64,000 bases of DNA, taken from positions 1,549 through 65,548 of the IMG/VR virus record IMGVR_UViG_3300012928_002096. One strand, given 5' to 3'. Below the pieces are notes generated by a model that saw nothing but the letters and a program-made list of their open reading frames with translations, ran no database searches and was not told the origin of the DNA. The number at the start of each line of letters is the position of its first letter. Within the stretch, counting starts at the first letter, position 1. Source of the DNA: a virus. The translations under genes and the position numbers were made by a program. Below, one piece after another: positions 1 through 20,673 of this stretch.

Positions 1-248
1 CTAATTGGGAAAAAGGAATACCTTCTTGGTATAAGTATGGCAAAAAGAAAACTACATATCAGCAATGGCGTGATGCAGGGTATGGCATTAAACGTTTACA
101 AGGTATGGTAAATTTTATGGAAAGCGAAGACTGGAGTAGACGTCTACCTGAAATGAAAGAATTTTTACATAGGTGTGATGTGCAACGTGGCAACAGTTTT
201 GCCACAGTCTTTCCAGAGATGAAGGACATATTCGATGGCCTTGAATAG
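1..248 (+). CDS. C-terminal end of a radical-SAM-family protein (5' truncated by window edge)
   Basis: Open frame from nt 3 to TAG at 246-248; ends ...FLHRCDVQRGNSFATVFPEMKDIFDGLE, resembling the D-x-x-R-x-x-x-F tails of the downstream rSAM paralogs. Confidence 0.55.
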   Translation, partial: NWEKGIPSWYKYGKKKTTYQQWRDAGYGIKRLQGMVNFMESEDWSRRLPEMKEFLHRCDVQRGNSFATVFPEMKDIFDGLE

Positions 249-5237: not shown

Positions 5238-5264
5238 TAAATATATAAAACTATTGAGGATAAA

Positions 5265-5759: not shown

Positions 5760-5760
5760 T

Positions 5761-6357
5761 TTGCAAATCGTATATGGAGAACCGAGGACAGGTTCTCATT
5801 TTGTAGCAAGGCATATTGCTAATAAAAATAATATGTTATTTTTGGGAGAATATTTTAAAACTCCAATACCTAATGCACAAGTAAATATTGAAGATAAAAT
5901 AAAATCTATTCCGGAAAACTCTGTAATAATAATTCATCCAGATTTGTCATATGGCTATTACACAGATACTTTTTACGATTGGTTATTTTCTAATCCATTA
6001 ATAGTTACAGAAACAAATGATCGCTGGCGACAAGTTATAAGCTGGGGTATAGCAGCTAAAACAACAAATTATCATAGTTTTAATATTTCAAAGCAACTCG
6101 ATCAATATATAATTTATAAAAGAGAATTTTTTGATATGTTAAAATATTCTATACAAAAGTTTGAAAGTACTAAACATCTTATTAATTACAAAGAAAGATA
6201 CACTTTACAAGACCTTGATAAAATATCTTTTGTAAATGGAAAATATAATCCTACCAAAAAAACCTACAAGCAAAATACTCAACAATTAAGTTTAATGTAT
6301 GAAAATATTGAAGAAGTAAAAGAATGGTATCAGGAAATAAGAATTAATAAAAATTGA
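5761..6357 (+). CDS. Sulfotransferase-like P-loop protein
   Basis: N-terminal IVYGEPRTGSHF resembles the 5'-PSB PAPS-binding motif; downstream R-x-Q-x-x-S-W; TTG start. Confidence 0.55.
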   Translation: MQIVYGEPRTGSHFVARHIANKNNMLFLGEYFKTPIPNAQVNIEDKIKSIPENSVIIIHPDLSYGYYTDTFYDWLFSNPLIVTETNDRWRQVISWGIAAKTTNYHSFNISKQLDQYIIYKREFFDMLKYSIQKFESTKHLINYKERYTLQDLDKISFVNGKYNPTKKTYKQNTQQLSLMYENIEEVKEWYQEIRINKN

Positions 6358-6386
6358 ATAAATACATTTGTATACAGGAGACTACA

Positions 6387-7037
6387 ATGGATCATAAACA
6401 AATTGAAAAAGCAGTCATTAGAAGCCAGCACTGTCAGCGTAATTGGGATTTGTCAAAGCAAATACCTGAAGAAGATTTAGATCTAATTCAACACGCTATA
6501 ACGCAATGTCCTAGCAAACAAAATGTTGCATTTTACAAAGCACATATGATTACCGATAGAAACTTAATAGAAGCAATCCACAGTAAAACAGAAGGTTTCA
6601 CAACCAACTTTGTTACAATGGAAGGCGAAACAAACAGCCAAACTTTAGCTAATTTGTTAATTGTTTTTGAGGCATATAACGGACATCTAAATAGAGATAA
6701 AAAAGTATTTAGAAATGACGAAATATTGAAGATGGATTTAGGAAAAGAACTTTCCGAAGCAGAGCAAGAAACATTTAAAAGAGATCAGCAAATGGCTGTG
6801 GGTATCGCAGCAGGATATGCAAATGTTACTAGTGCTATGATGGGCTATGGTACTGGTTGTTGTGCTTGCTTCGATGGTGATGCTATTGCAGAACTTTTAA
6901 ATTTAGATGGTCCTGTTTTGCTAATGATGGGAATAGGTTACAAAGATGCTACTCGTAATAGAAGAGAACATCACGAAACTGGTTTTATGTTTCCAACAAA
7001 GCCAAAACAGAAGATCAAAGTTAAAAAGCATTACTAA
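6387..7037 (+). CDS. Nitroreductase-family flavoprotein
   Basis: IRSQHCQRNWD, CPSKQN, AAMMGYGTGCC, LMMGIGY; AGGAG RBS at 6376. Confidence 0.8.
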   Translation: MDHKQIEKAVIRSQHCQRNWDLSKQIPEEDLDLIQHAITQCPSKQNVAFYKAHMITDRNLIEAIHSKTEGFTTNFVTMEGETNSQTLANLLIVFEAYNGHLNRDKKVFRNDEILKMDLGKELSEAEQETFKRDQQMAVGIAAGYANVTSAMMGYGTGCCACFDGDAIAELLNLDGPVLLMMGIGYKDATRNRREHHETGFMFPTKPKQKIKVKKHY

Positions 7038-7056
7038 TATTTCTATTAAATAATAG

Positions 7057-8385
7057 ATGAAAGACACCTTCTGTCCAATTCCTTGGAACTTCCAGGCTGT
7101 TCGAAACAATGGAGATATACGAATTTGCTGTCAAGCAAACGTAACACAAAACCAAGGAGTTATTCGACACACTGACGGCACACCCTACAACGCACAACGT
7201 GATTCTTTAGAGGATGCACGTAATGCAGACCTTATGAAAGCTGTAAGGAAAAATATGCTTGAAGGTATTTGGAGTCAAGAGTGCGGCAGATGTCAACAAG
7301 AAGAAGAAGCAGGGCTTAACAGCAGACGCCAATACGAACAGCAAAATTGGCCTACATTTACTATTGACAAAGCAAGAGATGTAACAGACGAAGACGGCAA
7401 TGTAAATGATATTCCTGTAACATATTATGATTTGCGTTTTGGAAATTTATGTAATCTTGCGTGTAGAATGTGTGGTCCAACAGATAGTCACACTTGGTTT
7501 GAACAATGGGTAGATTATCATAAAACAAATGATTACATTGATACACACGGTACTGTAACATTACAACGTAATGCAAAAGGTAGGTTATTTACAAATGATT
7601 ATGATTGGCACGGCAGCAATGTTTTTTGGGATAGCATAGAACAAAATATTCCAAACATAAGACACGTTTATATGGCAGGCGGTGAGCCAATGATGATAGA
7701 AAGGCACTATGAATTTTTGCAAAAATGTATTGATAGTGGCTATGCTAAAAAAATTATTATAGAATACAATACAAATATGACAGCATTACCTCCTCGTGTA
7801 TTAGCAATGTGGAAACATTTTAGGCAAGTTAGAGTAGGTGCAAGTATTGACGGTTTTGGTGATATGGTTGAATACCAACGTTGGCCTTTGAAATGGAAGA
7901 GTGCTTACAAAAATTTACAAAAACTAGATGACATATGTGTTGAAAATAAAAATATATTTGCTTGGCTTGCTTGTACTGTTACTGCATACAACGTTTTTCA
8001 TATACCAGAATTTATGTGGTGGAAGTTAAAAGAAAGTGGTTTCAAAAAAATAAACAGTTCAAAAAAACGACCAATTATTACACACCACGTTGCACACGGA
8101 CCAAAAAGAACTAATATAAAATTGCTAAGTACAGAACTAAAGGAGGAACTGTTTCATCATTATAAATTATGGGAAGAAAAATTTATACAAGACAATGAAA
8201 TAGATCCACATACAAAGGATAACGCAGTAAATATTTTGGACAGTATACTAAAATTTGCCAACAAAGAAGATTATGCACAAGACTACTTACAAGAATTTGT
8301 AAATTTTACTAATTACCTTGATAAAACAAGAAATCAAAGCATACTAGATGTAGCACCACAATACTCAAAAATATTTGACAAATAA
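7057..8385 (+). CDS. Radical SAM protein with N-terminal twitch/SPASM domain
   Basis: FCPIPW...GDIRICC...ECGRC; CNLACRMC; MAGGEP; YNTN. Confidence 0.92.
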   Translation: MKDTFCPIPWNFQAVRNNGDIRICCQANVTQNQGVIRHTDGTPYNAQRDSLEDARNADLMKAVRKNMLEGIWSQECGRCQQEEEAGLNSRRQYEQQNWPTFTIDKARDVTDEDGNVNDIPVTYYDLRFGNLCNLACRMCGPTDSHTWFEQWVDYHKTNDYIDTHGTVTLQRNAKGRLFTNDYDWHGSNVFWDSIEQNIPNIRHVYMAGGEPMMIERHYEFLQKCIDSGYAKKIIIEYNTNMTALPPRVLAMWKHFRQVRVGASIDGFGDMVEYQRWPLKWKSAYKNLQKLDDICVENKNIFAWLACTVTAYNVFHIPEFMWWKLKESGFKKINSSKKRPIITHHVAHGPKRTNIKLLSTELKEELFHHYKLWEEKFIQDNEIDPHTKDNAVNILDSILKFANKEDYAQDYLQEFVNFTNYLDKTRNQSILDVAPQYSKIFDK

Positions 8386-8393
8386 ATTAAGGA

Positions 8394-9530
8394 GTGTTAT
8401 ACTATAATATGACTGAAGACTTGAAATGGAGCAACTATGACTTCACGAAAATACCCTTTGATGATATTGTTAGCGTTGGTCAGCGTACTTTATTGTACCG
8501 TGACATATTCACAGTATCTTGGCTCCTCGGAAGATTCTGCAACTACCGATGCAGTTATTGTTGGCCTTATGCCCGTAGTGACCGTAAAGACCATCGTCCT
8601 ACCGAGCTATGCTTACGAACAATCGATGAAATAAAAAGGCAAGCACGTGAGAACGGATTTAATAGTTATCATTTTAGTCTTAGCGGTGGGGAGCCTACTT
8701 TCCATCCTGGCTACTTGGATATTTTACAGCATTTGGCTAATGATGTAGAAAACACAAATTATACTAGTATTCATATGACAAGTAATTGCAGTAGACCTAT
8801 AAAGTGGTTTGAAACATATGTAGAATATGCAAAACCTTTTCATAGAGCAAGTATTACAGCCAGTTTACATACAGAACACTTAAATACAAAGGAGAAGATG
8901 CAGGACTTTGCAGATAAATTAATCCTGTGTCAAGAACACGATGTACAGATTACCATTAATATGGTCATGGTACCTGATTGGTTCGAAAGAGACTGGGAAA
9001 ACGCACTGTTCTTCCACGAACAAGGAATCAACGTCACACTCAAGCCGCAATCCGATCCAACGGCTAGTAAAGTGGTTGAAGGGTACAAAGAAGAAGACCT
9101 AAAACGTTTATGGAACGGAATGCCTCAAAGAGCGTACACTGAAAGTAAAAGGCAGTGGAAAGGTAGACCTAAACCTAAATTTGAAGTTCCTAAAGATATG
9201 ATGTATATGCCAGATGCAAGTGTGCCTTGGCATATGCAAGTGGAATTTAGAGATAAAGCAGGAACAGCTTGGTATATGGATCAAGCAGAAAGATTCAACG
9301 CTTTTAATTTTAACAAATTTAAAGGATGGAAATGCAATGCAGGATATCAAGGAATTATTATTAGAGAGCCTGATGGAAGTATCAAACGTAGTTATTCTTG
9401 TCACGATGTTCCACTTGGCAACATAGAAACAGGATTTAAGTTATTTGATCATCCTATGCCTTGTATCACTGAAAGTTGTGTTAGTAGTGCAGATAGTAAA
9501 ATACCAAAAAGGAAAGAAAATGCATTATAA
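8394..9530 (+). CDS. Radical SAM protein with C-terminal SPASM-like domain
   Basis: CNYRCSYC, LSGGEPT, FKGWKCNAG...SYSC...PCITESC; paralog of 2313-3494. Confidence 0.9.
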   Translation: MLYYNMTEDLKWSNYDFTKIPFDDIVSVGQRTLLYRDIFTVSWLLGRFCNYRCSYCWPYARSDRKDHRPTELCLRTIDEIKRQARENGFNSYHFSLSGGEPTFHPGYLDILQHLANDVENTNYTSIHMTSNCSRPIKWFETYVEYAKPFHRASITASLHTEHLNTKEKMQDFADKLILCQEHDVQITINMVMVPDWFERDWENALFFHEQGINVTLKPQSDPTASKVVEGYKEEDLKRLWNGMPQRAYTESKRQWKGRPKPKFEVPKDMMYMPDASVPWHMQVEFRDKAGTAWYMDQAERFNAFNFNKFKGWKCNAGYQGIIIREPDGSIKRSYSCHDVPLGNIETGFKLFDHPMPCITESCVSSADSKIPKRKENAL

Positions 9531-10194
9531 GATTGTAGAAAATGCTTTTGATCAAAATATTATAGATACTATAATTGAATATTATGATAATAGATTTGCT
9601 GAAACACATTTAACAAATGGTATGTACAAAATTGAAGATCCGTGGAACCTAGATATTGTACAAGAGAATATAAAACCTGTTTTATCAAATTACTTTGACA
9701 CTAATTTAGAAAATATAGGAGATAATATATACAAACACAACGATCCATATTTTCCACATTGTGATACAAGTGTTGGTTATCCTTGTTTTAATGTTCTTAT
9801 TCCGTTAAAAGTACACAATGATTTAGAACAAAAGTTTTGCATATTTGATCAGTATATAAATGATTTTAGCAGTGGTGCAACTTGGATGGGCAAATGGTAT
9901 GCTGCTGCACCAGAGTTTGAACATAATAAAAAACGTAGGTTTCCTTTCAAAGACAGCATAGTAGAAAATAAAACAAATCTTGAAATAGATGAAGAAATGT
10001 TTACAAGTTGTTTAGAAGCACGTGGCAGAGATAGATTATTGTTTAAAAATTTATCTGGTATTGCTGTTGATTTTACACCTGGTAGTTTAATTATTTTTGA
10101 TAGCAAACATATTCATTGCACTGGTAGAATGGATTGTGATTGGAAAATGGGATTGAGTTTACGATTTGCAGGTGTATTTGGAGAAGAAGTGTAA
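9520..10194 (+). CDS. 2OG-Fe(II) oxygenase-like protein
   Basis: PHCD (HxD), VLIPL, GSLIIFDSKHIHC (distal His), SLRF; start moved to ATG 9520. Confidence 0.7.
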   Translation: MHYKIVENAFDQNIIDTIIEYYDNRFAETHLTNGMYKIEDPWNLDIVQENIKPVLSNYFDTNLENIGDNIYKHNDPYFPHCDTSVGYPCFNVLIPLKVHNDLEQKFCIFDQYINDFSSGATWMGKWYAAAPEFEHNKKRRFPFKDSIVENKTNLEIDEEMFTSCLEARGRDRLLFKNLSGIAVDFTPGSLIIFDSKHIHCTGRMDCDWKMGLSLRFAGVFGEEV

Positions 10195-10883
10195 TGTATT
10201 TTATTTCTGCACCTTTTGGAAACTATTTACAGTATACTAACTTTTTAAGTGGTAAGCCAGTAATAAGTGTGACAGGAACATTTACAGTAAAGCCACGCCC
10301 TGGACTAGCAAAACAAATTATCAAAACTCTTAGATATACTAAAACAGGTTGGCGTAATCAACTAGGTTTGCGTAACCCAGGTATATTCCAAGGAATAGAA
10401 AATACATCACCTAAAAGCGTAATGAGTATTGCAAGTTTAGAACCAAATGATTGGAAAATACTTTATGAAATAGTTCCTAAAGATATGAGTGTAGAATTAA
10501 ATATTAGTTGTCCTAATGTTGACAAGCATCCTAATCTAAGTAAAATTTTTTCTAAAGATGATAGGAAATGGTGCATTGTAAAAGTGCCACCAATTATTAC
10601 AAATAAACAAATTGACAGAATTGTTAATTTAGGATATAAACAAATACACGCAAGTAACACAGTGCCTACTGCAAAAGGCGGGCTAAGTGGTTCTGTAATA
10701 GTTGAACATACACTTAGAATACTAGACTATATAAAAACTACACATCCTGATGTTGAAGTTATTGCTGGTGGTGGTGTATACAGTAAACAAGATGCAAAAA
10801 CATATATTGATGCAGGTGCAGATCATATTAGTTTAGGAACTGTATGTTTTACGCCTTGGAAAATAAAAAGGATAATAAATTGA
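10194..10883 (+). CDS. pyrD: Dihydroorotate dehydrogenase-like FMN enzyme (short, class 1-like)
   Basis: ISAPFG, ELNISCPN, VKVPP, ASNT, GGLSG, IAGGGV, GADHISLGT. Confidence 0.75.
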   Translation: MYFISAPFGNYLQYTNFLSGKPVISVTGTFTVKPRPGLAKQIIKTLRYTKTGWRNQLGLRNPGIFQGIENTSPKSVMSIASLEPNDWKILYEIVPKDMSVELNISCPNVDKHPNLSKIFSKDDRKWCIVKVPPIITNKQIDRIVNLGYKQIHASNTVPTAKGGLSGSVIVEHTLRILDYIKTTHPDVEVIAGGGVYSKQDAKTYIDAGADHISLGTVCFTPWKIKRIIN

Positions 10884-11419
10884 AATATGCAATTACTGGA
10901 CATACAAACGGAATAGGTAAAGCATTTAGTGAATTACCAGAAGTAAAAGATAATTTTATTGGCTTCAGCAAATCAAATGGATACAATATTAAAGATGTTG
11001 AAGATAGAAGAAAAATTATTAAAGAAAGTATAGACTGTGATGTTTTTATAAACAATGCATATACATTGTATTATCAAACAGACTTGTTATACGAATTGCA
11101 TAAAAAATGGAAAGATAGTGATAAAATTATTATCAATATGGGCAGTAATACAACTGATGGTATGAAAGACTTTCCGCATACTTACACTGCCCACAAAGCA
11201 AGTTTAGAAACAGCAAGTTTGCAACTTAGCAATACTAAGGATATTTGCAGAGTTGCATTGTTGAAATTTGGCTATGTTGGTACTGAAAGAATATTAAAAT
11301 ATATGAAACCAGAACATTATATTCCTGTTGAAGATGCTGCAAAAATAATTTACCAGACAGTAGAATGGGCAAATAAATATAACGTAAGAACAATGACAAT
11401 TTTACCGAGAGAGCAATGA
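10880..11419 (+). CDS. Short-chain dehydrogenase/reductase
   Basis: AITGHTNGIGKA, FINNA, INMGS, YTAHK; TTG start. Confidence 0.8.
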   Translation: MKYAITGHTNGIGKAFSELPEVKDNFIGFSKSNGYNIKDVEDRRKIIKESIDCDVFINNAYTLYYQTDLLYELHKKWKDSDKIIINMGSNTTDGMKDFPHTYTAHKASLETASLQLSNTKDICRVALLKFGYVGTERILKYMKPEHYIPVEDAAKIIYQTVEWANKYNVRTMTILPREQ

Positions 11420-12018
11420 GTTATTATACAGAATTAGATTTACCAGAATTAGAATTATACGATGAATTCAATAAGTTAATGGACAATGGTACTATACATT
11501 GGTTTAGAGATGATTGTCAAGATCAAATTTGTATCAATAGTACAAAAAAAGATCCTGATAATTTTTTATTAGGTAGAGCGAGTTTATATTATGACTGGGA
11601 TAAATCTTATGAAGAAGATGGTAAAATAGTAACTCCTTTACGTAAACCACCGTTACGGGAACAACAGTTTACTACACTTTGCACAGCATTTAAAGGTACA
11701 CTGTTTGAAGAAGTTTACAATGCTCTCACAAAAAAATACAATGTTGGCAGAGTTAGAATAATGAATAGTCAACCAAAGACTTGTTTAACTTGGCATAGTG
11801 ATAATACAACTAGAATACATTATCCAATGAAAACACAAGATGGCTGTTTTATGATTATTGAAGACGAAGTAAAACATTTAGAAAAAAATAAATGGTATCA
11901 TACGGATACACGATACGAGCATACTGCAATGAACGCAAGCAGAGAAACTAGAATGCATTTGGTTGCTTGTGTGTTAGAGGAAAGGTTTGATGGAGAATAC
12001 AACAAAGTTATTAATTAA
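11416..12018 (+). CDS. AspH/Asp-Asn beta-hydroxylase-like 2OG-Fe(II) oxygenase
   Basis: RVRIM...LTWHSD...RIHYP...HTAMN...RMHLV. Confidence 0.8.
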   Translation: MSYYTELDLPELELYDEFNKLMDNGTIHWFRDDCQDQICINSTKKDPDNFLLGRASLYYDWDKSYEEDGKIVTPLRKPPLREQQFTTLCTAFKGTLFEEVYNALTKKYNVGRVRIMNSQPKTCLTWHSDNTTRIHYPMKTQDGCFMIIEDEVKHLEKNKWYHTDTRYEHTAMNASRETRMHLVACVLEERFDGEYNKVIN

Positions 12019-12703
12019 TCACGCTTTTTGTCATCTTATGCTTATACCTGCATTTTTGTATGGTGATGCTTGGATGTTCATAGCAGGATTTGCTTGGTGG
12101 TATGTAATTGCTATTGTTGCAATAAGTGGTGGATATCACAGATATTACAGTCATTTTAGTTTTAAGACACGCAAGTGGTATCCATATGCTGTAAATATTT
12201 TAGGAATGTTTGCAGGAGCAGGGCCAGCAATGACTTGGGCTGCAACACATAGACAACATCACGCATATAGTGACACTGAAGACGATCCCCACAGTCATAG
12301 TATCAAAGGTATTTGGAGTGTATATGTAAACACCTGGGGTTATGGTTTTAAAATTAAACGTAGATTTATAAAACGTTTACTACAAGATCCGTTGTTAAGA
12401 TGGTTCCACAAATATTACTTTCATTTAAATGTTGCAATTATTGTTGTGTTTACTGCTATTGATCCTATGCTTATGATATTTGGTTATGCTATGCCTGTTG
12501 TACTAGCATTTCACGGATATGGTTTGTTAAATGTTTTAGGACACAAAGATGCACAACCAAACAATAGTTGGATAGCAAACATATTAACTGCTGGCGAAGG
12601 TTGGCATAAAAATCATCATAAACGTGCAGGAAGTTATGAAATAGGACAAAAATGGTGGGAACTAGATCCTACTGCTTGGTTTATAAAAATAATTAAGGTT
12701 TAG
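11987..12703 (+). CDS. Membrane fatty-acid desaturase (delta-9-like)
   Basis: Three His boxes HRYYSH, HRQHH and GEGWHKNHH; hydrophobic segments; WWELDP tail. Confidence 0.9.
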   Translation: MMENTTKLLINHAFCHLMLIPAFLYGDAWMFIAGFAWWYVIAIVAISGGYHRYYSHFSFKTRKWYPYAVNILGMFAGAGPAMTWAATHRQHHAYSDTEDDPHSHSIKGIWSVYVNTWGYGFKIKRRFIKRLLQDPLLRWFHKYYFHLNVAIIVVFTAIDPMLMIFGYAMPVVLAFHGYGLLNVLGHKDAQPNNSWIANILTAGEGWHKNHHKRAGSYEIGQKWWELDPTAWFIKIIKV

Positions 12704-12704
12704 T

Positions 12705-13364
12705 ATGGACATTACTTTTGCAGCAATTGACTTAGGTATTAGTGCTTTAGAAAAACAAAAAATATTAAATGAGATACTTAGTGTTCCTGATGATTATTGG
12801 CATTACAATGAATTTAGAGGATGTCATATGCTAGGCATATACAACGGTGGCGGTAAACTAGGTGGTAGAGATGTAGCAGGAAATACTGCTAAAGGTGAAT
12901 TTGATTATACTCCAGCTGGTAAACTATGCCATTACACACGATATACATTAGAAAATAAAATGTTTCCTTTTATGGATCCTGTTGGCAGAGTAACAATACT
13001 ACGTACAAAAGTTAATGCTGGATTGTCTGTGCATTTAGATAGCACCTATGAAGAAATAGGTACATTACAACACAAGTTTAGATATGTTCTAAATGGTAAC
13101 ATTGACAAACTATATTTTTTAGATAGAGATCATAAAAAAATATTTGTGCCTGATTGTTATGATACCTATGTAATGGATGGTAGTCACGCACATAGTTTAG
13201 ATCCTGGCACAGAAGAAAAAATTACACTTTGTATAGGTGCTCCTTGGAAAGGAAAGCCTAATGCTAAGTATGATGAAATATTAAATAATTCATTATTTAA
13301 TTTTAAAGTAAGTAGACCAAGTTATTACAAGCAGGAATGGCTAGATCCATTTTTTAAAAAATGA
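12705..13364 (+). CDS. 2OG-Fe(II)/AspH-like oxygenase
   Basis: GRVTIL...SVHLD...KFRYV...DGSHAHSL. Confidence 0.65.
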   Translation: MDITFAAIDLGISALEKQKILNEILSVPDDYWHYNEFRGCHMLGIYNGGGKLGGRDVAGNTAKGEFDYTPAGKLCHYTRYTLENKMFPFMDPVGRVTILRTKVNAGLSVHLDSTYEEIGTLQHKFRYVLNGNIDKLYFLDRDHKKIFVPDCYDTYVMDGSHAHSLDPGTEEKITLCIGAPWKGKPNAKYDEILNNSLFNFKVSRPSYYKQEWLDPFFKK

Positions 13365-13957
13365 GAATTGTTACACTAGAACAATATGAAGAAAAATTTT
13401 TATCATATTGTAATAAGTTTTATAATTTAGATGATAGGAATAAAGATTGGTTTGATCCTGATTATGCAGGAAGCATACCAAATTCATACAAAAAATATCC
13501 ACTGTGGACTTTTCTCATAGACGACAACGATAACCTAATTGCATTGAGTTGTGTGCAAACACATTATTTTCCAGATGATTGTGCTAGGCTTTTAACAAGA
13601 ACATTTTACAATCCTGAATATAGACGCAAGCATTTAAAATATGAACATAATGAAAAAACACCTGCAATGTATATGCTTGAAGCACAACTTGAATTAACAA
13701 ACTATAAACATAATTTTATGAGTGTAGAATTTATAAGAAGAAAAAATTCACTAGTGAAATTGGCAAAAAAGCTCAACGATAAATATTCTACTAACTGGAA
13801 AGTGCTTGATAATTTATATCACACTTATCCAAACAGTGATGATCCACATAGTTGGCAACCAGTGTGTGTATTACAAACAGATAGTAAATTTCCGTTGAGA
13901 CACATATCGCAAACAGAATGGGAAAGCATATATGGCAGAAAAGTGTTTAATTCATAA
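13361..13957 (+). CDS. GNAT-like acyltransferase
   Basis: LIALSCV...ARLLTRTFYNPEYRRK resembles GNAT motif A. Confidence 0.5.
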   Translation: MRIVTLEQYEEKFLSYCNKFYNLDDRNKDWFDPDYAGSIPNSYKKYPLWTFLIDDNDNLIALSCVQTHYFPDDCARLLTRTFYNPEYRRKHLKYEHNEKTPAMYMLEAQLELTNYKHNFMSVEFIRRKNSLVKLAKKLNDKYSTNWKVLDNLYHTYPNSDDPHSWQPVCVLQTDSKFPLRHISQTEWESIYGRKVFNS

Positions 13958-14591
13958 TACTCGTAGAAGCAGAGTTGCAGGAAACAACGGACCAAGAAGA
14001 CATCAAATGAAAACACACGGTACAGTTACACAAAACGTACCTAAAGATGTATTAGAACAAATTTACCAAATTGCTGCTACATATAACGGAAATGATTTAG
14101 GCGGAGATAATTATCAGATATCACAGCATTGTGATGTAAAAACTGCATTTACTGCCAGTGAATCGTATTCACAAATTTTGTTGCAACAATTAAATGATGG
14201 CGCAGAAAATGAAGTTGATGAAACTAACTACACAACGTGGCGTAAAGACTTACAAACTAATCTAATTGAACAATACTTAGAAAACACGTTTAAAACACCG
14301 TATAGAGCCCGTATAAGCGTTATGCACGGGGGTAATGAACTAAATTACCACATAGACACTGATACAAGTGTGTTATGTCGTGTACAAATACCTGTAATTA
14401 CAGAAGGTAGTTTATTTCAATGGAAAACAAAAACTGAAGAAATTAGTTTAGATATGTTAACCGGCAATAGTTATTTTGTTAACACTGGTTGGCTACATAG
14501 AGTTACAAATGATAGTAACAACATAAGAATTGTTTTAATTTTTGGTGTTGACTATGACAATTTACCAAACAAAGAAAGTTTGCTAATTTGA
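13932..14591 (+). CDS. AspH-like 2OG-Fe(II) oxygenase
   Basis: RARIS...NYHID...RVQIP...GWLHRVTN...RIVLIF; true start may be ATG 14007. Confidence 0.75.
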   Translation: MAEKCLIHNTRRSRVAGNNGPRRHQMKTHGTVTQNVPKDVLEQIYQIAATYNGNDLGGDNYQISQHCDVKTAFTASESYSQILLQQLNDGAENEVDETNYTTWRKDLQTNLIEQYLENTFKTPYRARISVMHGGNELNYHIDTDTSVLCRVQIPVITEGSLFQWKTKTEEISLDMLTGNSYFVNTGWLHRVTNDSNNIRIVLIFGVDYDNLPNKESLLI

Positions 14592-15316
14592 CATATGTTG
14601 ATAAAAATGATTGGGTGTTTGATACAAAACAACTACAAACAGAGTTGCAAAAATTATTAGAAGAAAATAAAGTCAACAATCAACGAGATGGCAGTTTACA
14701 CGGGTTATGCCTAACTTCGCAGGACGGCAGTTTATACAATGGATTTAATTTTAATGTTGCTATACAATATCCTCCGTATGAACAACAAGATAAACAAGAT
14801 CCTAATCCTAAAATTTATTTTGATTTAGAATACGCTAAACAAAACAACATATATCATATGCTTGACTATGAAGTAGAAACAAATGCTTGTACAGGTATAT
14901 GGAAAGAAATAATAGACTTTTTGTACAGTAAAGGAATGAATCCACGTAGAGTAAGACTTTCTTACTTACCACCAGAAGGTGTTATTAATACACATAGCGA
15001 TGGAGGCGGATATAAATTTCATATACCGATATACACAGATGGTACAGATTTTGTACACGGAGACGAATCTTACACATTAGAAGAAGGTGGTAGTTATCTA
15101 GCAAGTGTTAATCCTTATCATTATGTAAAAAATAATGGTGACACAGATAGATGGCATCTAGTTGCTGATGTTTGGGACACAGTAGGAAACTTTAGGATTG
15201 GAAAAGTAGGGCAAGACGAATTTAATAATGAAAAAGTAAATGCAAAACTATGGCGTGATTATGTTAACGGAAAAATAGACACACCAAATAAAATTTTATT
15301 AGGAGCTGAAAACTAA
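14588..15316 (+). CDS. AspH-like 2OG-Fe(II) oxygenase
   Basis: RVRLS...NTHSD...KFHIP...YHYVKNNGDTDRWHLV. Confidence 0.8.
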   Translation: MTYVDKNDWVFDTKQLQTELQKLLEENKVNNQRDGSLHGLCLTSQDGSLYNGFNFNVAIQYPPYEQQDKQDPNPKIYFDLEYAKQNNIYHMLDYEVETNACTGIWKEIIDFLYSKGMNPRRVRLSYLPPEGVINTHSDGGGYKFHIPIYTDGTDFVHGDESYTLEEGGSYLASVNPYHYVKNNGDTDRWHLVADVWDTVGNFRIGKVGQDEFNNEKVNAKLWRDYVNGKIDTPNKILLGAEN

Positions 15317-16152
15317 TGCAAATGGACGCAGTAAGATATGAAATAGATTTTAACACTATGAGTGACTCAGAAATTGTAAACTGGGGTAAAAATATAGTAA
15401 AAGATAATGTTGTACTTGTTAGAAACCAAAACCTAGACGAAGCAGGCATACTAAGAGTTTGTGAATTAGTTGGCAATGTGCTGAAACCAAATCAATTTTT
15501 TATGCATCCAGATTACCCTGGCTTATTTAGAGTAACAAACGAACGTAAGGATGGCGATAAGATTGGTATCTTTGCAGACAAAGAACTAGACTGGCACAGT
15601 AACGGTAATGGTAGGAAAAGCGGCAAAGAGTGTTGTGTAGCCTTATATTGTATTCGTCCTGGTGAAAACAGTGTAACTAGTTTTTGTGATACTAGACAAG
15701 CATATAGAGATCTAAGCGAAGAAGATAAAAACTTTTACAAGCAAATAGATTGTACATTTAAATTTGAGAACGGAACATTTTATGACTTAGACGAAGATGA
15801 CAAAGAATTAAAAATGTTTCAAGGTGGCGCAAGAGATTTCAAGTATGGTGTTACAAAACCTTTGGTATATACGCATCCATATGATGGTGATGAAGGATTG
15901 TACTTTACATTTCATTACATTAGAGAAATGTGGCTTAGAGATAATCCAGAAGAGAAGTTGGACAAGCAACCTATCTTTGATAAATTAATGGCACATATTT
16001 TCCAAGACAAATATATTTGGCATCACGATGATTGGCAACCAGGTGATTTTATTTTTATGGATCAGTTTCATAGTATTCATAAACGTAATGCAGTCGAAGG
16101 TGATAGATTCTTATATAGACTAAGTTTTGATTATGAAGGTTGTTATGGATAA
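15316..16152 (+). CDS. TauD/TfdA-family dioxygenase
   Basis: DWHSN, TSFCDT, HPYDG, WQPGDFIFMDQ...HKR. Confidence 0.8.
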   Translation: MQMDAVRYEIDFNTMSDSEIVNWGKNIVKDNVVLVRNQNLDEAGILRVCELVGNVLKPNQFFMHPDYPGLFRVTNERKDGDKIGIFADKELDWHSNGNGRKSGKECCVALYCIRPGENSVTSFCDTRQAYRDLSEEDKNFYKQIDCTFKFENGTFYDLDEDDKELKMFQGGARDFKYGVTKPLVYTHPYDGDEGLYFTFHYIREMWLRDNPEEKLDKQPIFDKLMAHIFQDKYIWHHDDWQPGDFIFMDQFHSIHKRNAVEGDRFLYRLSFDYEGCYG

Positions 16153-16847
16153 TGCATTACTACGAACTAGAATGGACAGATGATTTCAAACTTATGTTTG
16201 AAATACTAACAAAGTTTTACGTTAGTATGCCTAGTATTCTAGATGATGAAACTCCAAGATTGCCTATTATTTTTGATAAATTAAAAGATGCATACGAAAA
16301 TCCTTTTAACAAGCATAAACAAGCATTATGGTTTGATAGAATAAAAGAACCAGATCAGGAAGTAAAATTAATACTTGAATTATTTGACAAATACAAATTC
16401 AAGCACAATATAGACTATTTTACACAATCTGGACATAAAGATATTACAGGTGAATTTTTACCACATAGACATATGCCAGGAAAAGTTAGACGTGGTGTTA
16501 CAGATGATGGTGCTGCTGTAGATAAAGTACAAACCGATGCAGTAGGCGAAAAAGGTACAGAAATACAAACTACAAATGTACAATTTACATTTCCGTATAT
16601 TAATTCACATTTAGGCGAAACACAATGGTCAGCAACATACGATGTGCCTTTCTTAGAAAGACGTAGATTTACAGAAGAAGAAATTACTGGCAGATACACA
16701 CTTAACACAAAGCCTGTTTTGTTTGATGTTAAGTCTTGGCACCAAGGACGTAATACAACAAATAATGAAGATAGAGTATTATTTGGTATACCAACTTTAT
16801 TTAATAATGTTAAAGAAGCAGTTAAATACCTAAGGAGATTACAATGA
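16140..16847 (+). CDS. 2OG-Fe(II)-like oxygenase, atypical HxH site
   Basis: LPHRH...QFTFP...PVLFDVKSWHQG...RVLF. Confidence 0.55.
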   Translation: MLWIMHYYELEWTDDFKLMFEILTKFYVSMPSILDDETPRLPIIFDKLKDAYENPFNKHKQALWFDRIKEPDQEVKLILELFDKYKFKHNIDYFTQSGHKDITGEFLPHRHMPGKVRRGVTDDGAAVDKVQTDAVGEKGTEIQTTNVQFTFPYINSHLGETQWSATYDVPFLERRRFTEEEITGRYTLNTKPVLFDVKSWHQGRNTTNNEDRVLFGIPTLFNNVKEAVKYLRRLQ

Positions 16848-17518
16848 ATAGATTGAGATATAAATTCGGAGATAGATTTGCAGAAACTAAAGGATACGAT
16901 GGGTTTGCTGCTGATAAAGATGAATTAAATAACTTCTTTGAACAAAAGGTAAAAGGAAAATTAGGTGATCATAACACTGTTGGTATAGATAGTACAAAGC
17001 AACATATATACAATGTTTGTTATGATTGTAATATACCTTTATGGAACGAAATATATAATCGTGTTACAAATATAGGTACGATGTGTGATGTAAAACTAAA
17101 TTGGGATGAAATAAAACATTGTATGCGTTTTACTTTTATATGGATGCCGCCAGGAGGAGATCTTACTCCACACACAGCTCATTACTTCAGAGCATTAAGT
17201 GCATTCAATACACCATTACGTGGCAAAACAGAAATAAGTTTCTACGAACATTTACCACAAGAAGATGGAACACACAAAGTCGGCAAAAAATTAGAAACGC
17301 ACGAATATTTCAATCCTAATTTTTTAAATGTAAATCGTTATCACGGTGTTGCAAATGATACAGAAGAAGAACGTATGATATTAAAAACACATTTACTTAT
17401 TGTGCCTTGGCAAAAACTTGTTAAAGCATACGAAGGTGATGATATTATTAATATGTTTGAAGAAACAGTTCCTTGGCAAAAACAAAAGAAAGAAACACAA
17501 GTCAAACGTCATGGATAA
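16844..17518 (+). CDS. 2OG-Fe(II)-like oxygenase with HxA motif
   Basis: MPPGGDLTPHTAH...FNTPL...LNVNRYHGV...RMILK. Confidence 0.6.
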   Translation: MNRLRYKFGDRFAETKGYDGFAADKDELNNFFEQKVKGKLGDHNTVGIDSTKQHIYNVCYDCNIPLWNEIYNRVTNIGTMCDVKLNWDEIKHCMRFTFIWMPPGGDLTPHTAHYFRALSAFNTPLRGKTEISFYEHLPQEDGTHKVGKKLETHEYFNPNFLNVNRYHGVANDTEEERMILKTHLLIVPWQKLVKAYEGDDIINMFEETVPWQKQKKETQVKRHG

Positions 17519-18299
17519 TTTTAACAAAGAAGAAATAATTAATCACGCACGTGAACACGGATGGTGGTTACAAAGAGATGTGCAAATGGATAGGAAGCAA
17601 TTTATGGAGTTTTGTAACCATATTGCTACACCTTGGTCGTGGAAAATACACGATATGCACGGAGAAGGCGATCTTAACGAAGAAGAAGTTGTAGATTGGT
17701 CAAGTGAAACTAGATTTATGAAACGTAGTTTGCCTTGGCACGCTGATAATCCTTGGAGTAAAGATTTTCAGTTTCCTTTACGTGCATTTTATGCAGTAAA
17801 TATACCTGATCCAAAAGACGGACCTTTAGAGTTTCTTAATCAAACAAAATGGTTTGAATCACTTGGCGAAAATCAAAAAGCAGACTTTAGATATATGAAA
17901 GTACTTGTGCAATGCTACAAAGGAAATTGCCAACCTTATTACGATGACTTTGTAAAAGTAAATCCAATTACAGGTAAAGAAAGTTTAAACTGGGGAAGTA
18001 AAGTTGTATACAGCGATGTATATGGGTTAGAACCTGATGAAGGACACGCACATAATCATTTTTCATTTACAATGGCAATTATGCGTGATAGGAATATTGT
18101 TCCTGATGAAGAAATATCTACTTGGTTTCAAGATATGATAGATAAAGGGCATCACGATATTGTTGAATTTAAAGAAGGTGATCTGCTTGTTAATGATAAT
18201 TGGACAACATTTCATTATAGAAGAACATTAACAAACCCTAACGAACGTTTACTTTATAGGAAAACATTGTTGCAACCATGGCAAAAATATATTGGCTAA
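17511..18299 (+). CDS. TauD/TfdA-family dioxygenase
   Basis: WHADN, NPITG, EFKEGDLLVNDNWTTFHYR...RLLYR; start moved to ATG 17511. Confidence 0.8.
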   Translation: MDNFNKEEIINHAREHGWWLQRDVQMDRKQFMEFCNHIATPWSWKIHDMHGEGDLNEEEVVDWSSETRFMKRSLPWHADNPWSKDFQFPLRAFYAVNIPDPKDGPLEFLNQTKWFESLGENQKADFRYMKVLVQCYKGNCQPYYDDFVKVNPITGKESLNWGSKVVYSDVYGLEPDEGHAHNHFSFTMAIMRDRNIVPDEEISTWFQDMIDKGHHDIVEFKEGDLLVNDNWTTFHYRRTLTNPNERLLYRKTLLQPWQKYIG

Positions 18300-18742
18300 C
18301 GATAAATGTAATTGGAAAAGATAATTATTTTAATGATTATCTCACAAATCCAGCAAAAAGATTTCAAACTGGTACAGGTAAAGCCTTAGGCAAAGATTAC
18401 TGGAAAATGTATGAACAGGCATATTTGTATGCTAAACACCAAGGACATATTATACTACGAGCAAAAGTTATTAACAAACGTAACGTGTTAAAAATATATC
18501 AAATATGGGATAGTAAAGATGTTCGTGAACAATGGGAACAAAAAGTTGATCCTAAATACTTTACTGCAACAGTACCACTTATTACATATCAATATCCTGT
18601 AAATGAAAAACAAAAAAACAAAATATTTGACTTAGTATTAAAAAGTAATAAAGTAATTTTACAGGCAGTAAGAGAAGATCATAGAACGCCAGGAATGACT
18701 ATAGGCGATCCTTTAAAGTTAGATGTACTTTATAAAACTTAA
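18278..18742 (+). CDS. Hypothetical protein, last gene of the enzyme island
   Basis: 154-aa ORF overlapping the upstream stop. Confidence 0.6.
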   Translation: MAKIYWLTINVIGKDNYFNDYLTNPAKRFQTGTGKALGKDYWKMYEQAYLYAKHQGHIILRAKVINKRNVLKIYQIWDSKDVREQWEQKVDPKYFTATVPLITYQYPVNEKQKNKIFDLVLKSNKVILQAVREDHRTPGMTIGDPLKLDVLYKT

Positions 18743-20673
18743 AGACCAAATTTACCAGATATATTACTGCTAAAAGGTTTCTCACTTTTCCATAATGGAC
18801 TATGCAAATATTTGTTTGTACTATCCCAAACACTATCATCTTCATCAAAATTTATTTCTGGAGAAACAGTGATAGTTCCTTGCATAGAACTATGGTTGCC
18901 ACAAATGTAATAAAAAGTTCCTGGTAATGTTGGTGTCCATTGTACGCCATTACCGCCGTATGAACCTTGACCTGTTGCGGCCGGAGTTGATACTTGATCG
19001 CCAGTACCAGTAGTTGCAGCATCTTTTATGTATATTGGATGTGTAACCCCTGCATTGTTTGTAATAGTAAGCGTATCTCCTACTTGTACAGCAATACTAT
19101 CATTATTACCTGATACACTACCATTTCTATCTGTTCCACTCATTACATATGCACTTGCTCCACTGTTTGTAGCAGTGATTGCATAAGATTCTGGTGTTGT
19201 TTTATCTGTGTATAGCTGATCACTTTTTGCATTTGCTTCAATATATGTTTTCATTTGTGCTGGTGTCATACCTGGATTTGCTTCTAATATACACGCAACC
19301 ATACCAGCAACTTGTGGTGATGCCATACTAGTACCTGATATTTTCATTAACTTATAATTGCTGTCTAATGGTGAATCAGGTCCGCCATATGTGCTGTATA
19401 ATGCACTTGTACCACCGTTATCAGTTGAACCTACACTTATAATTTCTGTACCTGGAGCAAATATATTTACACCCGGTCCTGCACAACTTGATTCGGCTTT
19501 TTGCTCTTTACTACCTGTATATGTATAATCTACATTTCCTACCATAAATGCATTTTCACTAAAAGGTGAACTACCGCGGAAGATAAATTCTTGAGAGCCA
19601 CTTCCAAATGCACACGTATCATCATAATGTGGGCCACTTGCTTTATCTATGTAATAATAACTGTTTCCTGCTGCTATACAAAATATAATACCAGCATCTA
19701 AACATTCTTGTAAGTCTGTATCTACACTAGCAACACGAACATTTATTCTTCTGTTTAGACCTATTACAGGCACAACACCTACATTAGCCCAAAGATTATT
19801 ACTACTGCTGCCATAATCTGAATAACTCCAACTGTTACCTAAAAAGGAACCACTAGCTGGTGTGCTTCTATTACCACCATAACCCCAACTTGCATTTACA
19901 ACTGTTGGACGTTTGAATCCTGTCTTAGGATCTATAGGCTTGTTGTTATGCCATCCTTTGATAACATCAAAACAATTAGTTACACTAATACCAGTACCCG
20001 AATCTCCTGTGCCTTCTAAACCAGCTACTTTTACAGAATATATGTGTGCATCTTTAGCCCAACCTTGTGTGCGGCCTGCTACTGTACCTGCACAATGACT
20101 TCCGTGACTGTCATAGTCTCTATAATGGTTAGCACTTTGTGATCCTGCAAGTCCACTTTCTGCGTACCAATCGATTTGCTTTACTCTGCTTATACCTGCA
20201 CTATCTGTAAATTCAGGATGATCAACTTGTAGTCCGCTGTCTTGTATTACAACGTCTACACCTTTTCCTGTAAGTGTATAATTAAATTGCTCTGTAATTG
20301 TTGCTGTACCATCAAAAACATCAAAGCCTTTAGCACATCTTATCAAACCCCAATTTAAATCGTTTGAGTTTCCGCTTTGAGTATTCTTTTTCCAATTAGC
20401 ACCACCTTGAAATGCATTAAACCCAATATCTATATCTTCTCTATCTTGTGGTGGTATTTGTACATCTACTACCCTATTATCACCTCTAAGTGCAGTAGCT
20501 TCTGCATCTGTTAATGCATAGTGTGTATTTCTTTGACTTAACGGTCTTGCATTTGCAACGTCTACTGTTCTATTTGGTATATCTCCAGCACCAGTTGATG
20601 CTATCATTTCTGCATTAAATGCATCGTAGTCTACACCTGCTTTAAGTGTGACAATATACTCTTTCTCGCTCAT
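18739..20673 (-). CDS. Subtilisin-like S8 serine protease with C-terminal cupredoxin-like domain
   Basis: Triad IQDSG / HGSHCAG / GTSMASP; HP...YYICGNHSSM type-1 Cu ligands. Confidence 0.9.
   Translation of the reverse strand: MSEKEYIVTLKAGVDYDAFNAEMIASTGAGDIPNRTVDVANARPLSQRNTHYALTDAEATALRGDNRVVDVQIPPQDREDIDIGFNAFQGGANWKKNTQSGNSNDLNWGLIRCAKGFDVFDGTATITEQFNYTLTGKGVDVVIQDSGLQVDHPEFTDSAGISRVKQIDWYAESGLAGSQSANHYRDYDSHGSHCAGTVAGRTQGWAKDAHIYSVKVAGLEGTGDSGTGISVTNCFDVIKGWHNNKPIDPKTGFKRPTVVNASWGYGGNRSTPASGSFLGNSWSYSDYGSSSNNLWANVGVVPVIGLNRRINVRVASVDTDLQECLDAGIIFCIAAGNSYYYIDKASGPHYDDTCAFGSGSQEFIFRGSSPFSENAFMVGNVDYTYTGSKEQKAESSCAGPGVNIFAPGTEIISVGSTDNGGTSALYSTYGGPDSPLDSNYKLMKISGTSMASPQVAGMVACILEANPGMTPAQMKTYIEANAKSDQLYTDKTTPESYAITATNSGASAYVMSGTDRNGSVSGNNDSIAVQVGDTLTITNNAGVTHPIYIKDAATTGTGDQVSTPAATGQGSYGGNGVQWTPTLPGTFYYICGNHSSMQGTITVSPEINFDEDDSVWDSTNKYLHSPLWKSEKPFSSNISGKFGL

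What the first reader, a model, noticed from the sequence alone, without database searches (positions are those of the whole stretch)
16844..17518. 2OG-Fe(II) enzyme with His-x-Ala in place of His-x-Asp: candidate halogenase
Seen: DLTPHTAH at the HxD position, with distal His (RYHGV) and the 2OG-binding Arg (RMILK) retained. Known: SyrB2/WelO5-type 2OG halogenases replace the Asp/Glu ligand with Ala/Gly to bind chloride. Neighbours also have altered triads: 16140 has HRH and TauD 15316 has HSN. Inference: a possible phage-encoded radical halogenase, although the extra His (HTAH) could instead be a ligand.
Basis: partly seen in the sequence, partly recalled or inferred. Interest (0 to 1): 0.6.

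Follow-up and report, generated by a model that had tools for sequence, protein, structure and literature searches.

The report
Phage iron oxygenase lacking its aspartate
A gene conserved in uncultured marine giant phages encodes an iron/2-oxoglutarate enzyme that has permanently replaced one of its three iron-holding residues with alanine; chlorinating enzymes do this, but so does at least one ordinary hydroxylase of the same family, so chlorination is a testable minority bet.

Summary
ORF 16844-17518 (224 aa) folds with high confidence (pLDDT 92) as a 2-oxoglutarate-oxygenase barrel. Homology to Asp-bearing relatives and to a neighbouring paralogue puts Ala112 exactly at the His-x-Asp carboxylate position. 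His110, distal His167 and Arg177 are invariant in 71 homologues. Ala is kept in 53 of them although synonymous sites are saturated (dN/dS about 0.06-0.2). The extra His of HTAH varies, so it is not a ligand.

The halogenase reading is only partly supported:
- The family is a divergent branch of the AspH-like Pfam family PF05118. Its one characterised carboxylate-free member, human AspH, is a hydroxylase that does not halogenate.
- A nested clade of syntenic orthologues carries Asn at this position; single sequences carry Gly or Thr.
- His183 is fixed only in the Asp-less clade and could lie next to the vacated site.
- The fold does not favour halogenases over AlkB-type enzymes.
- No tool returned model coordinates, so I could not measure the iron site.

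My odds: hydroxylase-type 2-His oxygenase about 0.5, halogenase about 0.2, relocated third ligand about 0.15.

The gene belongs to a desaturase plus multi-oxygenase module present in all 19 related viral contigs. This scan has noted the same Asn variants, and HxA TauD-type phage enzymes, on other DNA.

The parts
16844..17518 (+). Gene for a 224-aa DSBH (2OG-oxygenase fold) protein, a divergent AspH-like (PF05118) lineage
   Evidence: ORF. AF2 pLDDT 92.3, pTM 0.88. All top-50 VIA matches are 2OG oxygenases, Z up to 13.3. pN 0.11-0.37 against saturated pS 0.63-0.76.
17171..17179 (+). His110-Thr111-Ala112: proximal iron ligand, with Ala at the carboxylate position of HxD/E
   Evidence: H110 invariant. 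A112 kept in 53 of 72 sequences, and it aligns with Asp in 7 distant homologues and in paralogues 13932 and 14588. The Ala codon varies between GCT and GCA. It lies at the end of strand 106-110.
17180..17182 (+). His113, the 'extra' His of HTAH: not conserved, so not a ligand
   Evidence: The column reads H/N/A/R/E/V/S/L among close homologues.
17342..17344 (+). His167, distal iron ligand at the start of strand 167-170
   Evidence: Invariant in 71 sequences. It aligns with the distal His of PF05118 paralogues.
17372..17374 (+). Arg177, the 2OG C5-carboxylate-binding Arg at the start of strand 177-184 (distal His +10)
   Evidence: Invariant. It aligns with the Arg of paralogues. The VIA range offset places it on AlkB R204 (an inference from ranges, not a residue-level alignment).
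17390..17392 (+). His183: fixed only in the Asp-less clade; candidate second-sphere partner or third ligand
   Evidence: H in 65 of 65 non-Asp sequences, but N/S/D/H (1 of 7) in Asp-bearing ones. The range offset places it on AlkB R210, which lines a tunnel with H131, D133 and H187 (PMC5628400). Geometry was not measured.
17330..17332 (+). Val163, four residues before the distal His, where AspH has Asp721 and HygX has its relocated Glu
   Evidence: V in 51 of 53 Ala-clade sequences. The AspH and HygX positions come from PMC10915816 and PMC13374393. Equivalence is by position only.
11987..18742 (+). Conserved module: delta-9-type desaturase, unknown 12705, GNAT-like 13361, AspH-like 13932 and 14588, TauD-like 15316, this gene, TauD-like 17400, unknown 18278
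   Evidence: The same set of genes flanks the orthologue in all 19 IMG/VR loci, usually next to the tail-fibre-like gene.
15316..16152 (+). TauD-family neighbour with His-Ser-Asn at the triad position (WHSN, nt 15592-15603)
   Evidence: PF02668, E 1.5e-30. WHSN is invariant in 16 orthologues.
16140..16847 (+). Neighbouring DSBH-like paralogue with His-x-His...His...Arg; the real start is probably ATG 16152
   Evidence: H109, H111, H201 and R212 are invariant in 14 homologues. AF2 pLDDT 76, with the HxH loop below 50. VIA matches are almost all 2OG oxygenases, Z 5.5-8.5. It is absent from the 19 loci.

Best explanation
The gene encodes a working Fe(II)/2-oxoglutarate-dependent oxygenase of the AspH-like (PF05118) lineage with a natural carboxylate-free, two-histidine iron site.

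Proposed mechanism:
- His110 (end of barrel strand II) and His167 (start of strand VII) hold the iron.
- 2OG chelates the iron. Its distal carboxylate is salt-bridged to Arg177 (strand VIII), probably helped by Thr129.
- The coordination position that Asp fills in ordinary family members is left open by Ala112 and taken by a solvent molecule, as in human AspH.
- The ferryl intermediate then hydroxylates, or otherwise oxidises, a substrate made or modified by the co-inherited desaturase plus multi-oxygenase module. A lipid or acyl compound, or a small metabolite, is the most likely substrate.

Shown: the fold, the conserved His/His/Arg set, the homologous Asp-to-Ala replacement, purifying selection, and module synteny.
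Inferred: iron and 2OG binding, water at the open site, hydroxylation as the outcome, and the substrate class.
For: Fold: AF2 pLDDT 92.3. All top VIA matches are 2OG oxygenases: ALKBH5 Z 13.3, ALKBH6 12.6, AlkB 12.4, AspH 9.8.

Family: 6 of 19 family members hit PF05118. P0049 scores 42 bits against a cut-off of 22.6. The family HMM finds PF05118 paralogue 13932 with H on H, A on D and R on R. hhalign to 14588 gives the same register. An Atlas neighbour cluster is 27% PF05118.

Site: H110, H167 and R177 are invariant in 71 sequences. T129, N122, Y155 and K181 are also conserved.

Selection: pS is saturated at 0.63-0.76 while pN is 0.11-0.37.

Precedent: human AspH, in the same Pfam family, uses only H679 and H725, has Gly681 with a water at the carboxylate site, hydroxylates, and shows no halogenation with chloride or pseudohalides (PMC6817910, PMC13168262, PMC10915816).

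Orthologue variation: a nested clade of syntenic orthologues has Asn, and single sequences have Thr or Gly. This fits 'no carboxylate needed' better than 'an empty halide pocket is needed'.
Against: - AspH holds its iron-bound water with Asp721, four residues before the distal His. That position here is an almost invariant Val163, so the AspH solution is not copied.
- Asp-to-Ala/Gly changes usually inactivate hydroxylases: 8 of 10 plant enzymes gave no halogenation and were hard to express (bioRxiv 10.1101/2024.12.09.627616). Most known natural carboxylate-free 2OG enzymes are halogenases.
- Ala specifically, not just any small residue, is fixed across 53 sequences.
- The iron-site geometry could not be measured.
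- The substrate is unknown.
Confidence: 0.5

Rival explanations
1. Radical halogenase. The site opened by Ala112 binds chloride or bromide on the iron. After hydrogen abstraction, the substrate radical rebounds onto the halogen, as in SyrB2, WelO5 and BesD. This would be an independent origin of halogenation inside the AspH-like lineage, and the first phage Fe/2OG halogenase.
For: - HxA sits exactly at the triad position and is fixed in 53 sequences under strong purifying selection, with both His and the 2OG-binding Arg intact.
- There is no acid at distal-His minus 4, where the two known non-halogenating HxG enzymes have one: AspH Asp721 and HygX Glu (PMC10915816, PMC13374393). Here it is Val163, and Phe/Leu115 follows Ala112. 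That is compatible with a hydrophobic anion pocket.
- No other carboxylate is conserved across the Asp-less clade.
- BesD aligns at Z 11.3 over 171 residues.
- The hosts are marine, and seawater is halide-rich.
- The HxA/G motif is the accepted mining signature, with the caveat that it gives false positives (PMC12871659).
Against: - Ten syntenic orthologues have Asn and one has Thr at this position. Those side chains would fill or ligate the halide site.
- The family's only characterised 2-His member does not halogenate (PMC6817910, PMC13168262).
- There is no sequence link to the SyrB2/PhyH, WelO5 or BesD families.
- The fold is closer to AlkB-type enzymes than to halogenases: WelO5 Z 9.7, CurA Hal Z 9.5.
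- I saw no carrier protein and no enzyme that would exploit a C-Cl bond in the module.
- Phage halogenases in the papers I read are flavin-dependent or tryptophan-halogenase-like (PMC10452541, PMC3037559).
Confidence: 0.2
2. Relocated third ligand. The iron site is not two-coordinate. His183 became fixed when Asp was lost (or Asn took over in the Asn clade) and completes a 3-His or 2-His-1-Asn site, giving an ordinary oxygenase with a neutral ligand set.
For: - His183 is invariant in all 65 non-Asp sequences and is N/S/D in 6 of 7 Asp-bearing ones.
- It lies on strand VIII, six residues after Arg177. By VIA range offset this is the AlkB R210 position, which lines the tunnel beside H131, D133 and H187 (PMC5628400).
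- HygX is a precedent for a relocated ligand with HxG (PMC13374393).
- The neighbouring paralogue 16140 has a conserved HxH motif, so histidine-rich sites occur in this island.
Against: [quoted passage not shown] A shorter His side chain at that position is unlikely to reach the iron without a backbone shift.
- His183 also stays invariant in the Asn clade, where it would be redundant as a ligand.
- One Asp-bearing relative (P0046) also has His there.
- The co-variation rests on very few independent events.
Confidence: 0.15
3. Not an oxidising enzyme. It is a 2OG- or metal-binding protein, or a pseudo-enzyme kept for a structural or regulatory role in the module.
For: - Loss of the carboxylate commonly kills activity (bioRxiv 10.1101/2024.12.09.627616).
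- Three adjacent DSBH proteins all have non-canonical triads: HTA, HSN and HxH.
Against: Exactly the catalytic set (H110, H167, R177, and the 2OG-pocket residues T129 and N122) is the most conserved part of the protein over deep divergence, and selection is strong. A mere scaffold would not need both His residues and the Arg.
Confidence: 0.05

Closest known systems
Human aspartate/asparagine beta-hydroxylase AspH (Pfam PF05118; PDB 5JQY, 9FVU)
   Same: - Same Pfam lineage by transitive homology.
- DSBH fold (Z 9.8).
- Natural two-His iron site with a small residue at the carboxylate position: H-T-G in AspH, H-T-A here.
- The 2OG-binding Arg is ten residues after the distal His in both (H725/R735; H167/R177).
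   Different: - The window protein misses the Pfam threshold.
- It is a single 224-aa domain with no TPR domain.
- It has Ala, not Gly.
- It has Val163 at the position of AspH's water-holding Asp721.
- It has His183, fixed in the Asp-less clade.
- It is phage-encoded, sits in a desaturase/oxygenase module, and has no known substrate.
Fe(II)/2OG halogenases (SyrB2/CytC3/CurA-Hal, WelO5/AmbO5, BesD/HalB, DAH)
   Same: - His-x-Ala/Gly...His motif at the facial-triad position.
- Retained 2OG-binding Arg.
- The change is stably inherited within a clade that descends from HxD ancestors, as described for DAH.
- Same general fold (BesD Z 11.3, WelO5 9.7, CurA Hal 9.5).
   Different: - No sequence homology to any of these families.
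- Orthologues with Asn or Thr at the position.
- No carrier protein or natural-product scaffold genes nearby.
- Halide binding and halogenated products are untested.
HygX (hygromycin B orthoester synthase, PDB 4XCB)
   Same: A 2OG oxygenase with the carboxylate position filled by a small residue (HxG) that is not a halogenase. General fold match (Z 9.9).
   Different: HygX relocates the acid to E-x3-H, four residues before the distal His (PMC13374393). Here that position is Val163, so this escape route is not used.
Bacterial AspH-family lipid hydroxylases LpxO and OlsC (from my own knowledge, not tested here)
   Same: The PF05118 lineage acts on acyl chains of membrane lipids. Here the gene always travels with a delta-9-type desaturase and a GNAT-like protein.
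   Different: I made no direct comparison. Their triads are, to my knowledge, canonical. The lipid substrate here is only a guess from context.

Membership tests
Fe(II)/2OG-dependent oxygenase superfamily | Double-stranded beta-helix (jelly-roll) core | tested here: met
   AF2 pLDDT 92.3 with eight core strands. All top-50 VIA matches are 2OG oxygenases, Z 9.5-13.3.
Fe(II)/2OG-dependent oxygenase superfamily | Two His iron ligands, at the end of strand II and the start of strand VII | tested here: met
   H110 and H167 are invariant in 71 sequences and lie at the ends of strands 106-110 and 167-170. Metal binding itself was not tested.
Fe(II)/2OG-dependent oxygenase superfamily | Asp/Glu carboxylate two residues after the first His (HxD/E) | tested here: not met
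   Ala112 aligns with Asp of HxD in distant homologues and in paralogues.
Fe(II)/2OG-dependent oxygenase superfamily | Basic residue on strand VIII that binds the 2OG C5 carboxylate | tested here: met
   R177 is invariant and aligns with the Arg of PF05118 paralogues.
Fe(II)/2OG-dependent oxygenase superfamily | Fe(II)- and 2OG-dependent turnover | not testable with these tools
   Needs a biochemical assay.
Pfam PF05118 Asp_Arg_Hydrox (AspH/LpxO/OlsC-like) | Match to the family HMM above the gathering score | tested here: inconclusive
   The window protein has no hit. Its distant homologue P0049 scores 42 bits against a 22.6 cut-off, and five others score below threshold. The family HMM hits PF05118 paralogue 13932 at 20.5 bits. 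Membership is therefore by transitive homology only.
AspH-type two-His hydroxylases | Small residue at the carboxylate position, with the water ligand held by a second-sphere Asp four residues before the distal His (Asp721) | tested here: not met
   The small residue is present (Ala112), but the minus-4 position is Val163, V in 51 of 53 Ala-clade sequences. Equivalence is by sequence position; no coordinates were available.
AspH-type two-His hydroxylases | TPR domain and EGF-domain protein substrate | tested here: not met
   This is a single-domain 224-aa protein. The homologues found, searched at 78-424 aa, are 194-244 aa. Longer fused forms were not searched.
Fe(II)/2OG halogenases | His-x-Ala/Gly...His in place of HxD/E...H | tested here: met
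   HTA...H167, anchored by homology.
Fe(II)/2OG halogenases | Small residue kept throughout the orthologous group | tested here: inconclusive
   A 53, G 1, but N 10 (one nested clade in the same syntenic module) and T 1.
Fe(II)/2OG halogenases | Homology to a characterised halogenase family (SyrB2/PhyH-type, WelO5, BesD) | tested here: inconclusive
   No Pfam or PDB sequence hit. Structural matches to BesD (11.3), WelO5 (9.7) and CurA Hal (9.5) are no better than to hydroxylases and AlkB.
Fe(II)/2OG halogenases | Halide coordinated to iron, and a halogenated product | not testable with these tools
   Needs a metal/halide-bound structure or spectroscopy, and product analysis.
HygX-type oxygenases with a relocated acid | H-x-G ... 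E-x3-H: an acid four residues before the distal His | tested here: not met
   Val163 is at that position. Motif from PMC13374393.

The most novel reading that the evidence does not exclude
This is the first virus-encoded Fe(II)/2OG radical halogenase. It would have arisen independently inside the AspH-like lineage, and it would be fixed in a lineage of abundant marine jumbo phages as part of a desaturase/oxygenase module that chlorinates or brominates a host lipid or metabolite during infection. His183 would act as the second-sphere partner of the halide.
Probability: 0.2. Interest if true: 0.8.

Novelty: new variant of a known kind. Interest (0 to 1): 0.5.

Why it matters
Natural 2OG oxygenases that work without the carboxylate ligand are rare and matter mechanistically. 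They are either C-H halogenases, which are sought after for biocatalysis, or special cases such as AspH and HygX, which show what else decides hydroxylation versus halogenation.

This lineage offers a compact 224-aa example under strong selection. It comes with a built-in natural series at one position (Asp, Ala, Asn, Gly, Thr) and a co-varying His183.

It also shows that marine giant phages carry a conserved oxidative tailoring module of unknown product. In that module at least two unrelated oxygenase families have both given up the iron-binding Asp. Finding the product would reveal a new kind of phage-driven chemistry in the ocean, whether or not halogen is involved.

Tried and rejected
Searches that gave nothing:
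- tblastn and megablast against 50,697 phage records found nothing. No cultured phage carries this gene.
- Sequence searches against PDB with the family profiles, with P0049 and with neighbour 14588 gave only noise. I therefore obtained no residue-level alignment to AspH or any halogenase.
- hhalign of the family against paralogues 11416, 16140 and 12705 gave nothing useful.
- Literature searches for the SyrB2 chloride-pocket residues found nothing citable. I do not use my recollection of that pocket as evidence.
- Cluster look-up shows only unnamed marine metagenome proteins.

I used IMG/VR loci instead.

Ideas rejected:
- The extra His113 as a ligand: the column is variable.
- A decaying pseudogene: dN/dS is well below 1.
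- An AspH-type Asp or a HygX-type Glu at distal-His minus 4: it is Val.
- A conserved compensating carboxylate elsewhere: E176, E89 and D61 all vary once distant Asp-less members are included.

Full report
**What is there.** ORF 16844-17518 (+) encodes 224 residues and starts in an ATGA overlap with the upstream gene. It has no Pfam or PHROG hit and no match in 50,697 deposited phage genomes. A search of 5.8 billion proteins found 39 homologues at 48-90% identity, all unnamed and from marine metagenomes. An exhaustive search of 1.84 billion cluster representatives found only 19 clusters. The family is therefore small and uncharacterised. The record holding the window is a 67-kb IMG/VR fragment that CheckV estimates at 19% complete. 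Its DNA polymerase is closest to those of the jumbo phages Phosso and Atu_ph07, at 50% and 48% identity. This is an uncultured marine giant phage.

**Fold.** An AlphaFold2 model built on 37 sequences has mean pLDDT 92.3 and pTM 0.88, with eight core strands. An all-against-all structural search gave 2OG-dependent oxygenases for every one of the top 50 entries: ALKBH6 Z 12.6, AlkB 11.8, AspH 9.8, WelO5 9.7, CurA halogenase 9.5. The second look gave ALKBH5 Z 13.3 and BesD Z 11.3. The fold is certain, but it does not separate hydroxylases from halogenases.

**Is Ala really at the carboxylate position?** Yes, and this rests on homology rather than on pattern matching.
- In 37 close homologues P109, H110, A112, H167 and R177 are invariant.
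- The more distant cluster representatives align over their full length and carry H-x-D at the same columns (P0045, 46, 47, 49, 53, 54).
- Six of 19 family members hit Pfam PF05118 (Asp_Arg_Hydrox). P0049, which has HTD, scores 42 bits against a cut-off of 22.6.
- A family HMM finds the PF05118 paralogue three genes upstream (13932). It aligns H110 to His, A112 to the Asp of HID, H167 to His and R177 to Arg.
- hhalign gives the same register for both 14588 and 13932.
- H110 ends strand 106-110, H167 starts strand 167-170 and R177 starts strand 177-184. This is the canonical layout of strands II, VII and VIII.

**The extra His.** The residue after Ala (His113 in the window) reads H, N, A, R, E, V, S or L among close homologues. 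It is not a ligand.

**Evolution of the site.** Across 72 aligned sequences position 112 is A 53, N 10, G 1, T 1 and D 7. On a maximum-likelihood tree the Asp-bearing sequences fall outside a 63-member Asp-less group, though that split has weak support. Ala is the predominant state in the group. The ten Asn sequences form one well-supported clade (SH-aLRT 99) nested among Ala lineages. Synonymous sites between the window gene and its orthologues are saturated (pS 0.63-0.76), while pN is 0.11-0.37, giving dN/dS of about 0.06-0.2. The Ala codon itself varies between GCT and GCA. This is a selected, working protein that lost its carboxylate long ago and has kept both His residues and the 2OG-binding Arg ever since.

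**Is there a replacement ligand?** Once distant Asp-less members are included, no acidic residue is conserved (E176, E89 and D61 all vary). The two known non-halogenating enzymes with a small residue at this position each have an acid four residues before the distal His:
- AspH has Asp721, which holds the iron-bound water (PMC10915816).
- HygX has a relocated Glu ligand in an E-x3-H motif (PMC13374393).

Here that position is Val163, which is almost invariant. One residue needs attention. His183 is invariant in all 65 Asp-less sequences but is N, S or D in six of the seven Asp-bearing ones. Thr129 and Glu176 behave similarly. The structural alignment ranges to AlkB (model 7-187 against AlkB 14-214) put Arg177 on AlkB R204 and His183 on AlkB R210. 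AlkB R210 lines a tunnel together with H131, D133 and H187 (PMC5628400). His183 may therefore lie beside the vacated site, as a hydrogen-bond or charge partner of a water or an anion, or less probably as a third ligand. No tool returns coordinates and /data holds no model file, so this stays unmeasured.

**Context.** All 19 related IMG/VR loci carry the orthologue inside the same module: a delta-9-type desaturase (11987), 12705, GNAT-like 13361, AspH-like 13932 and often 14588, TauD-like 15316, this gene, TauD-like 17400 and 18278. The module usually lies next to a tail-fibre-like gene, an HNH-like gene and an ATPase. In the window, five radical-SAM genes, a nitroreductase and a DHODH-like gene lie upstream. 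I saw no carrier protein, NRPS or PKS. The constant desaturase, together with the AspH family's known lipid hydroxylases (LpxO and OlsC, from my own knowledge), makes a lipid or acyl substrate the best guess. It is only a guess.

**Neighbours.**
- TauD-like 15316 reads WHSN, invariant in 16 orthologues, while TauD-like 17400 keeps WHAD or WHSD.
- ORF 16140 has H109-x-H111...H201...R212 invariant in 14 homologues.
- The 16140 model is moderate (pLDDT 76, with the HxH loop below 50). Its structural matches are almost all 2OG oxygenases at Z 5.5-8.5.
- In the loci whose orthologue of this gene has Asn (MPHVNY), the adjacent TauD-like gene also has Asn. Two unrelated oxygenase families in one module have both given up the Asp.

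**Hydroxylase or halogenase?** For halogenation:
- The motif sits at exactly the right place.
- Ala specifically has been fixed for a long time.
- The 2OG site is intact.
- The AspH-type and HygX-type compensating acids are absent.
- Asp-to-Gly/Ala changes usually inactivate hydroxylases (bioRxiv 10.1101/2024.12.09.627616), so a lineage that thrives without Asp has adapted to it.

Against halogenation:
- The lineage is AspH-like. AspH, the only characterised two-His member, hydroxylates and shows no halogenation with chloride or pseudohalides (PMC6817910, PMC13168262).
- Asn and Thr occur at the position in syntenic orthologues.
- His183 offers another way to complete or tune the site.
- There is no sequence or preferential fold link to a halogenase family.
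- A database paper warns that HxA/G mining gives false positives (PMC12871659).

Phage halogenases in the papers I read are flavin-dependent or tryptophan-halogenase-like (PMC10452541, PMC3037559), so a phage Fe/2OG halogenase would be new.

**Verdict.** My odds are:
- about 0.5 for a two-His hydroxylase-type oxygenase;
- about 0.2 for a halogenase;
- about 0.15 for a relocated third ligand;
- about 0.05 for a non-catalytic protein;
- the remainder for something else.

This is a new variant of a known kind: a phage-borne, AspH-like, carboxylate-free 2OG oxygenase. Earlier notes of this scan on other genomes describe the same Asn pair, which I confirmed in my own loci. They also describe HxA variants in phage TauD-family enzymes, which I did not test.

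Noticed in passing
window 15316-16152 (WHSN at 15592-15603): The TauD-family protein (PF02668, E 1.5e-30) has Asn where the family has the iron-binding Asp. WHSN is invariant in 16 orthologues from related viral contigs, and the distal His and the Arg are kept.
   Followed up: partly
window 16140-16847: This DSBH-like paralogue has His-x-His...His...Arg invariant in 14 homologues, a possible 3-His site. The AF2 model is moderate (pLDDT 76, HxH loop below 50) and its fold matches are nearly all 2OG oxygenases (Z 5.5-8.5). Homologues start at MHYYEL, so the real start is probably ATG 16152. The gene is absent from the 19 related loci.
   Followed up: partly
window 17390-17392 (His183), 17228-17230 (Thr129), 17369-17371 (Glu176): These three residues are fixed in all or nearly all Asp-less family members but variable in the Asp-bearing relatives. 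This co-variation with loss of the carboxylate ligand is unexplained.
   Followed up: partly
L007-L012 and L018, about 10001-10627 (and 9155-10000 for the TauD-like gene): In one clade of related phages the orthologue of this gene reads MPHVNY (Asn), and Arg116 is replaced by Leu. The adjacent TauD-like gene also has HSN.
   Followed up: partly
window 11987-18742 and loci L001-L019: A desaturase plus GNAT-like plus multi-oxygenase module is conserved in all 19 related IMG/VR contigs, usually beside a tail-fibre-like gene. Its product is unknown.
   Followed up: partly
window 11416-12018: This AspH-like ORF (HSD triad) matches PDB 7V4F/7V4P 'Beta-hydroxylase', a non-heme hydroxylase of a nucleoside-antibiotic pathway, at E 3.4e-9.
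   Followed up: no
window 235-9530: Five radical-SAM ORFs (one with a SPASM-type cluster domain), a nitroreductase (6354-7037) and a DHODH-like ORF (10140-10883) lie upstream on the same strand.
   Followed up: no
window 9445-10194: This is another likely DSBH protein with a PHCD...HIH motif. It has no Pfam hit.
   Followed up: no
window 18739-20673 (-): This is a 644-aa protein matching a phage protease PHROG. Its C-terminal part matches tail-fibre and baseplate PHROGs and ends in a cupredoxin-like C-x2-H-x3-M string. It sits directly downstream of the module.
   Followed up: no
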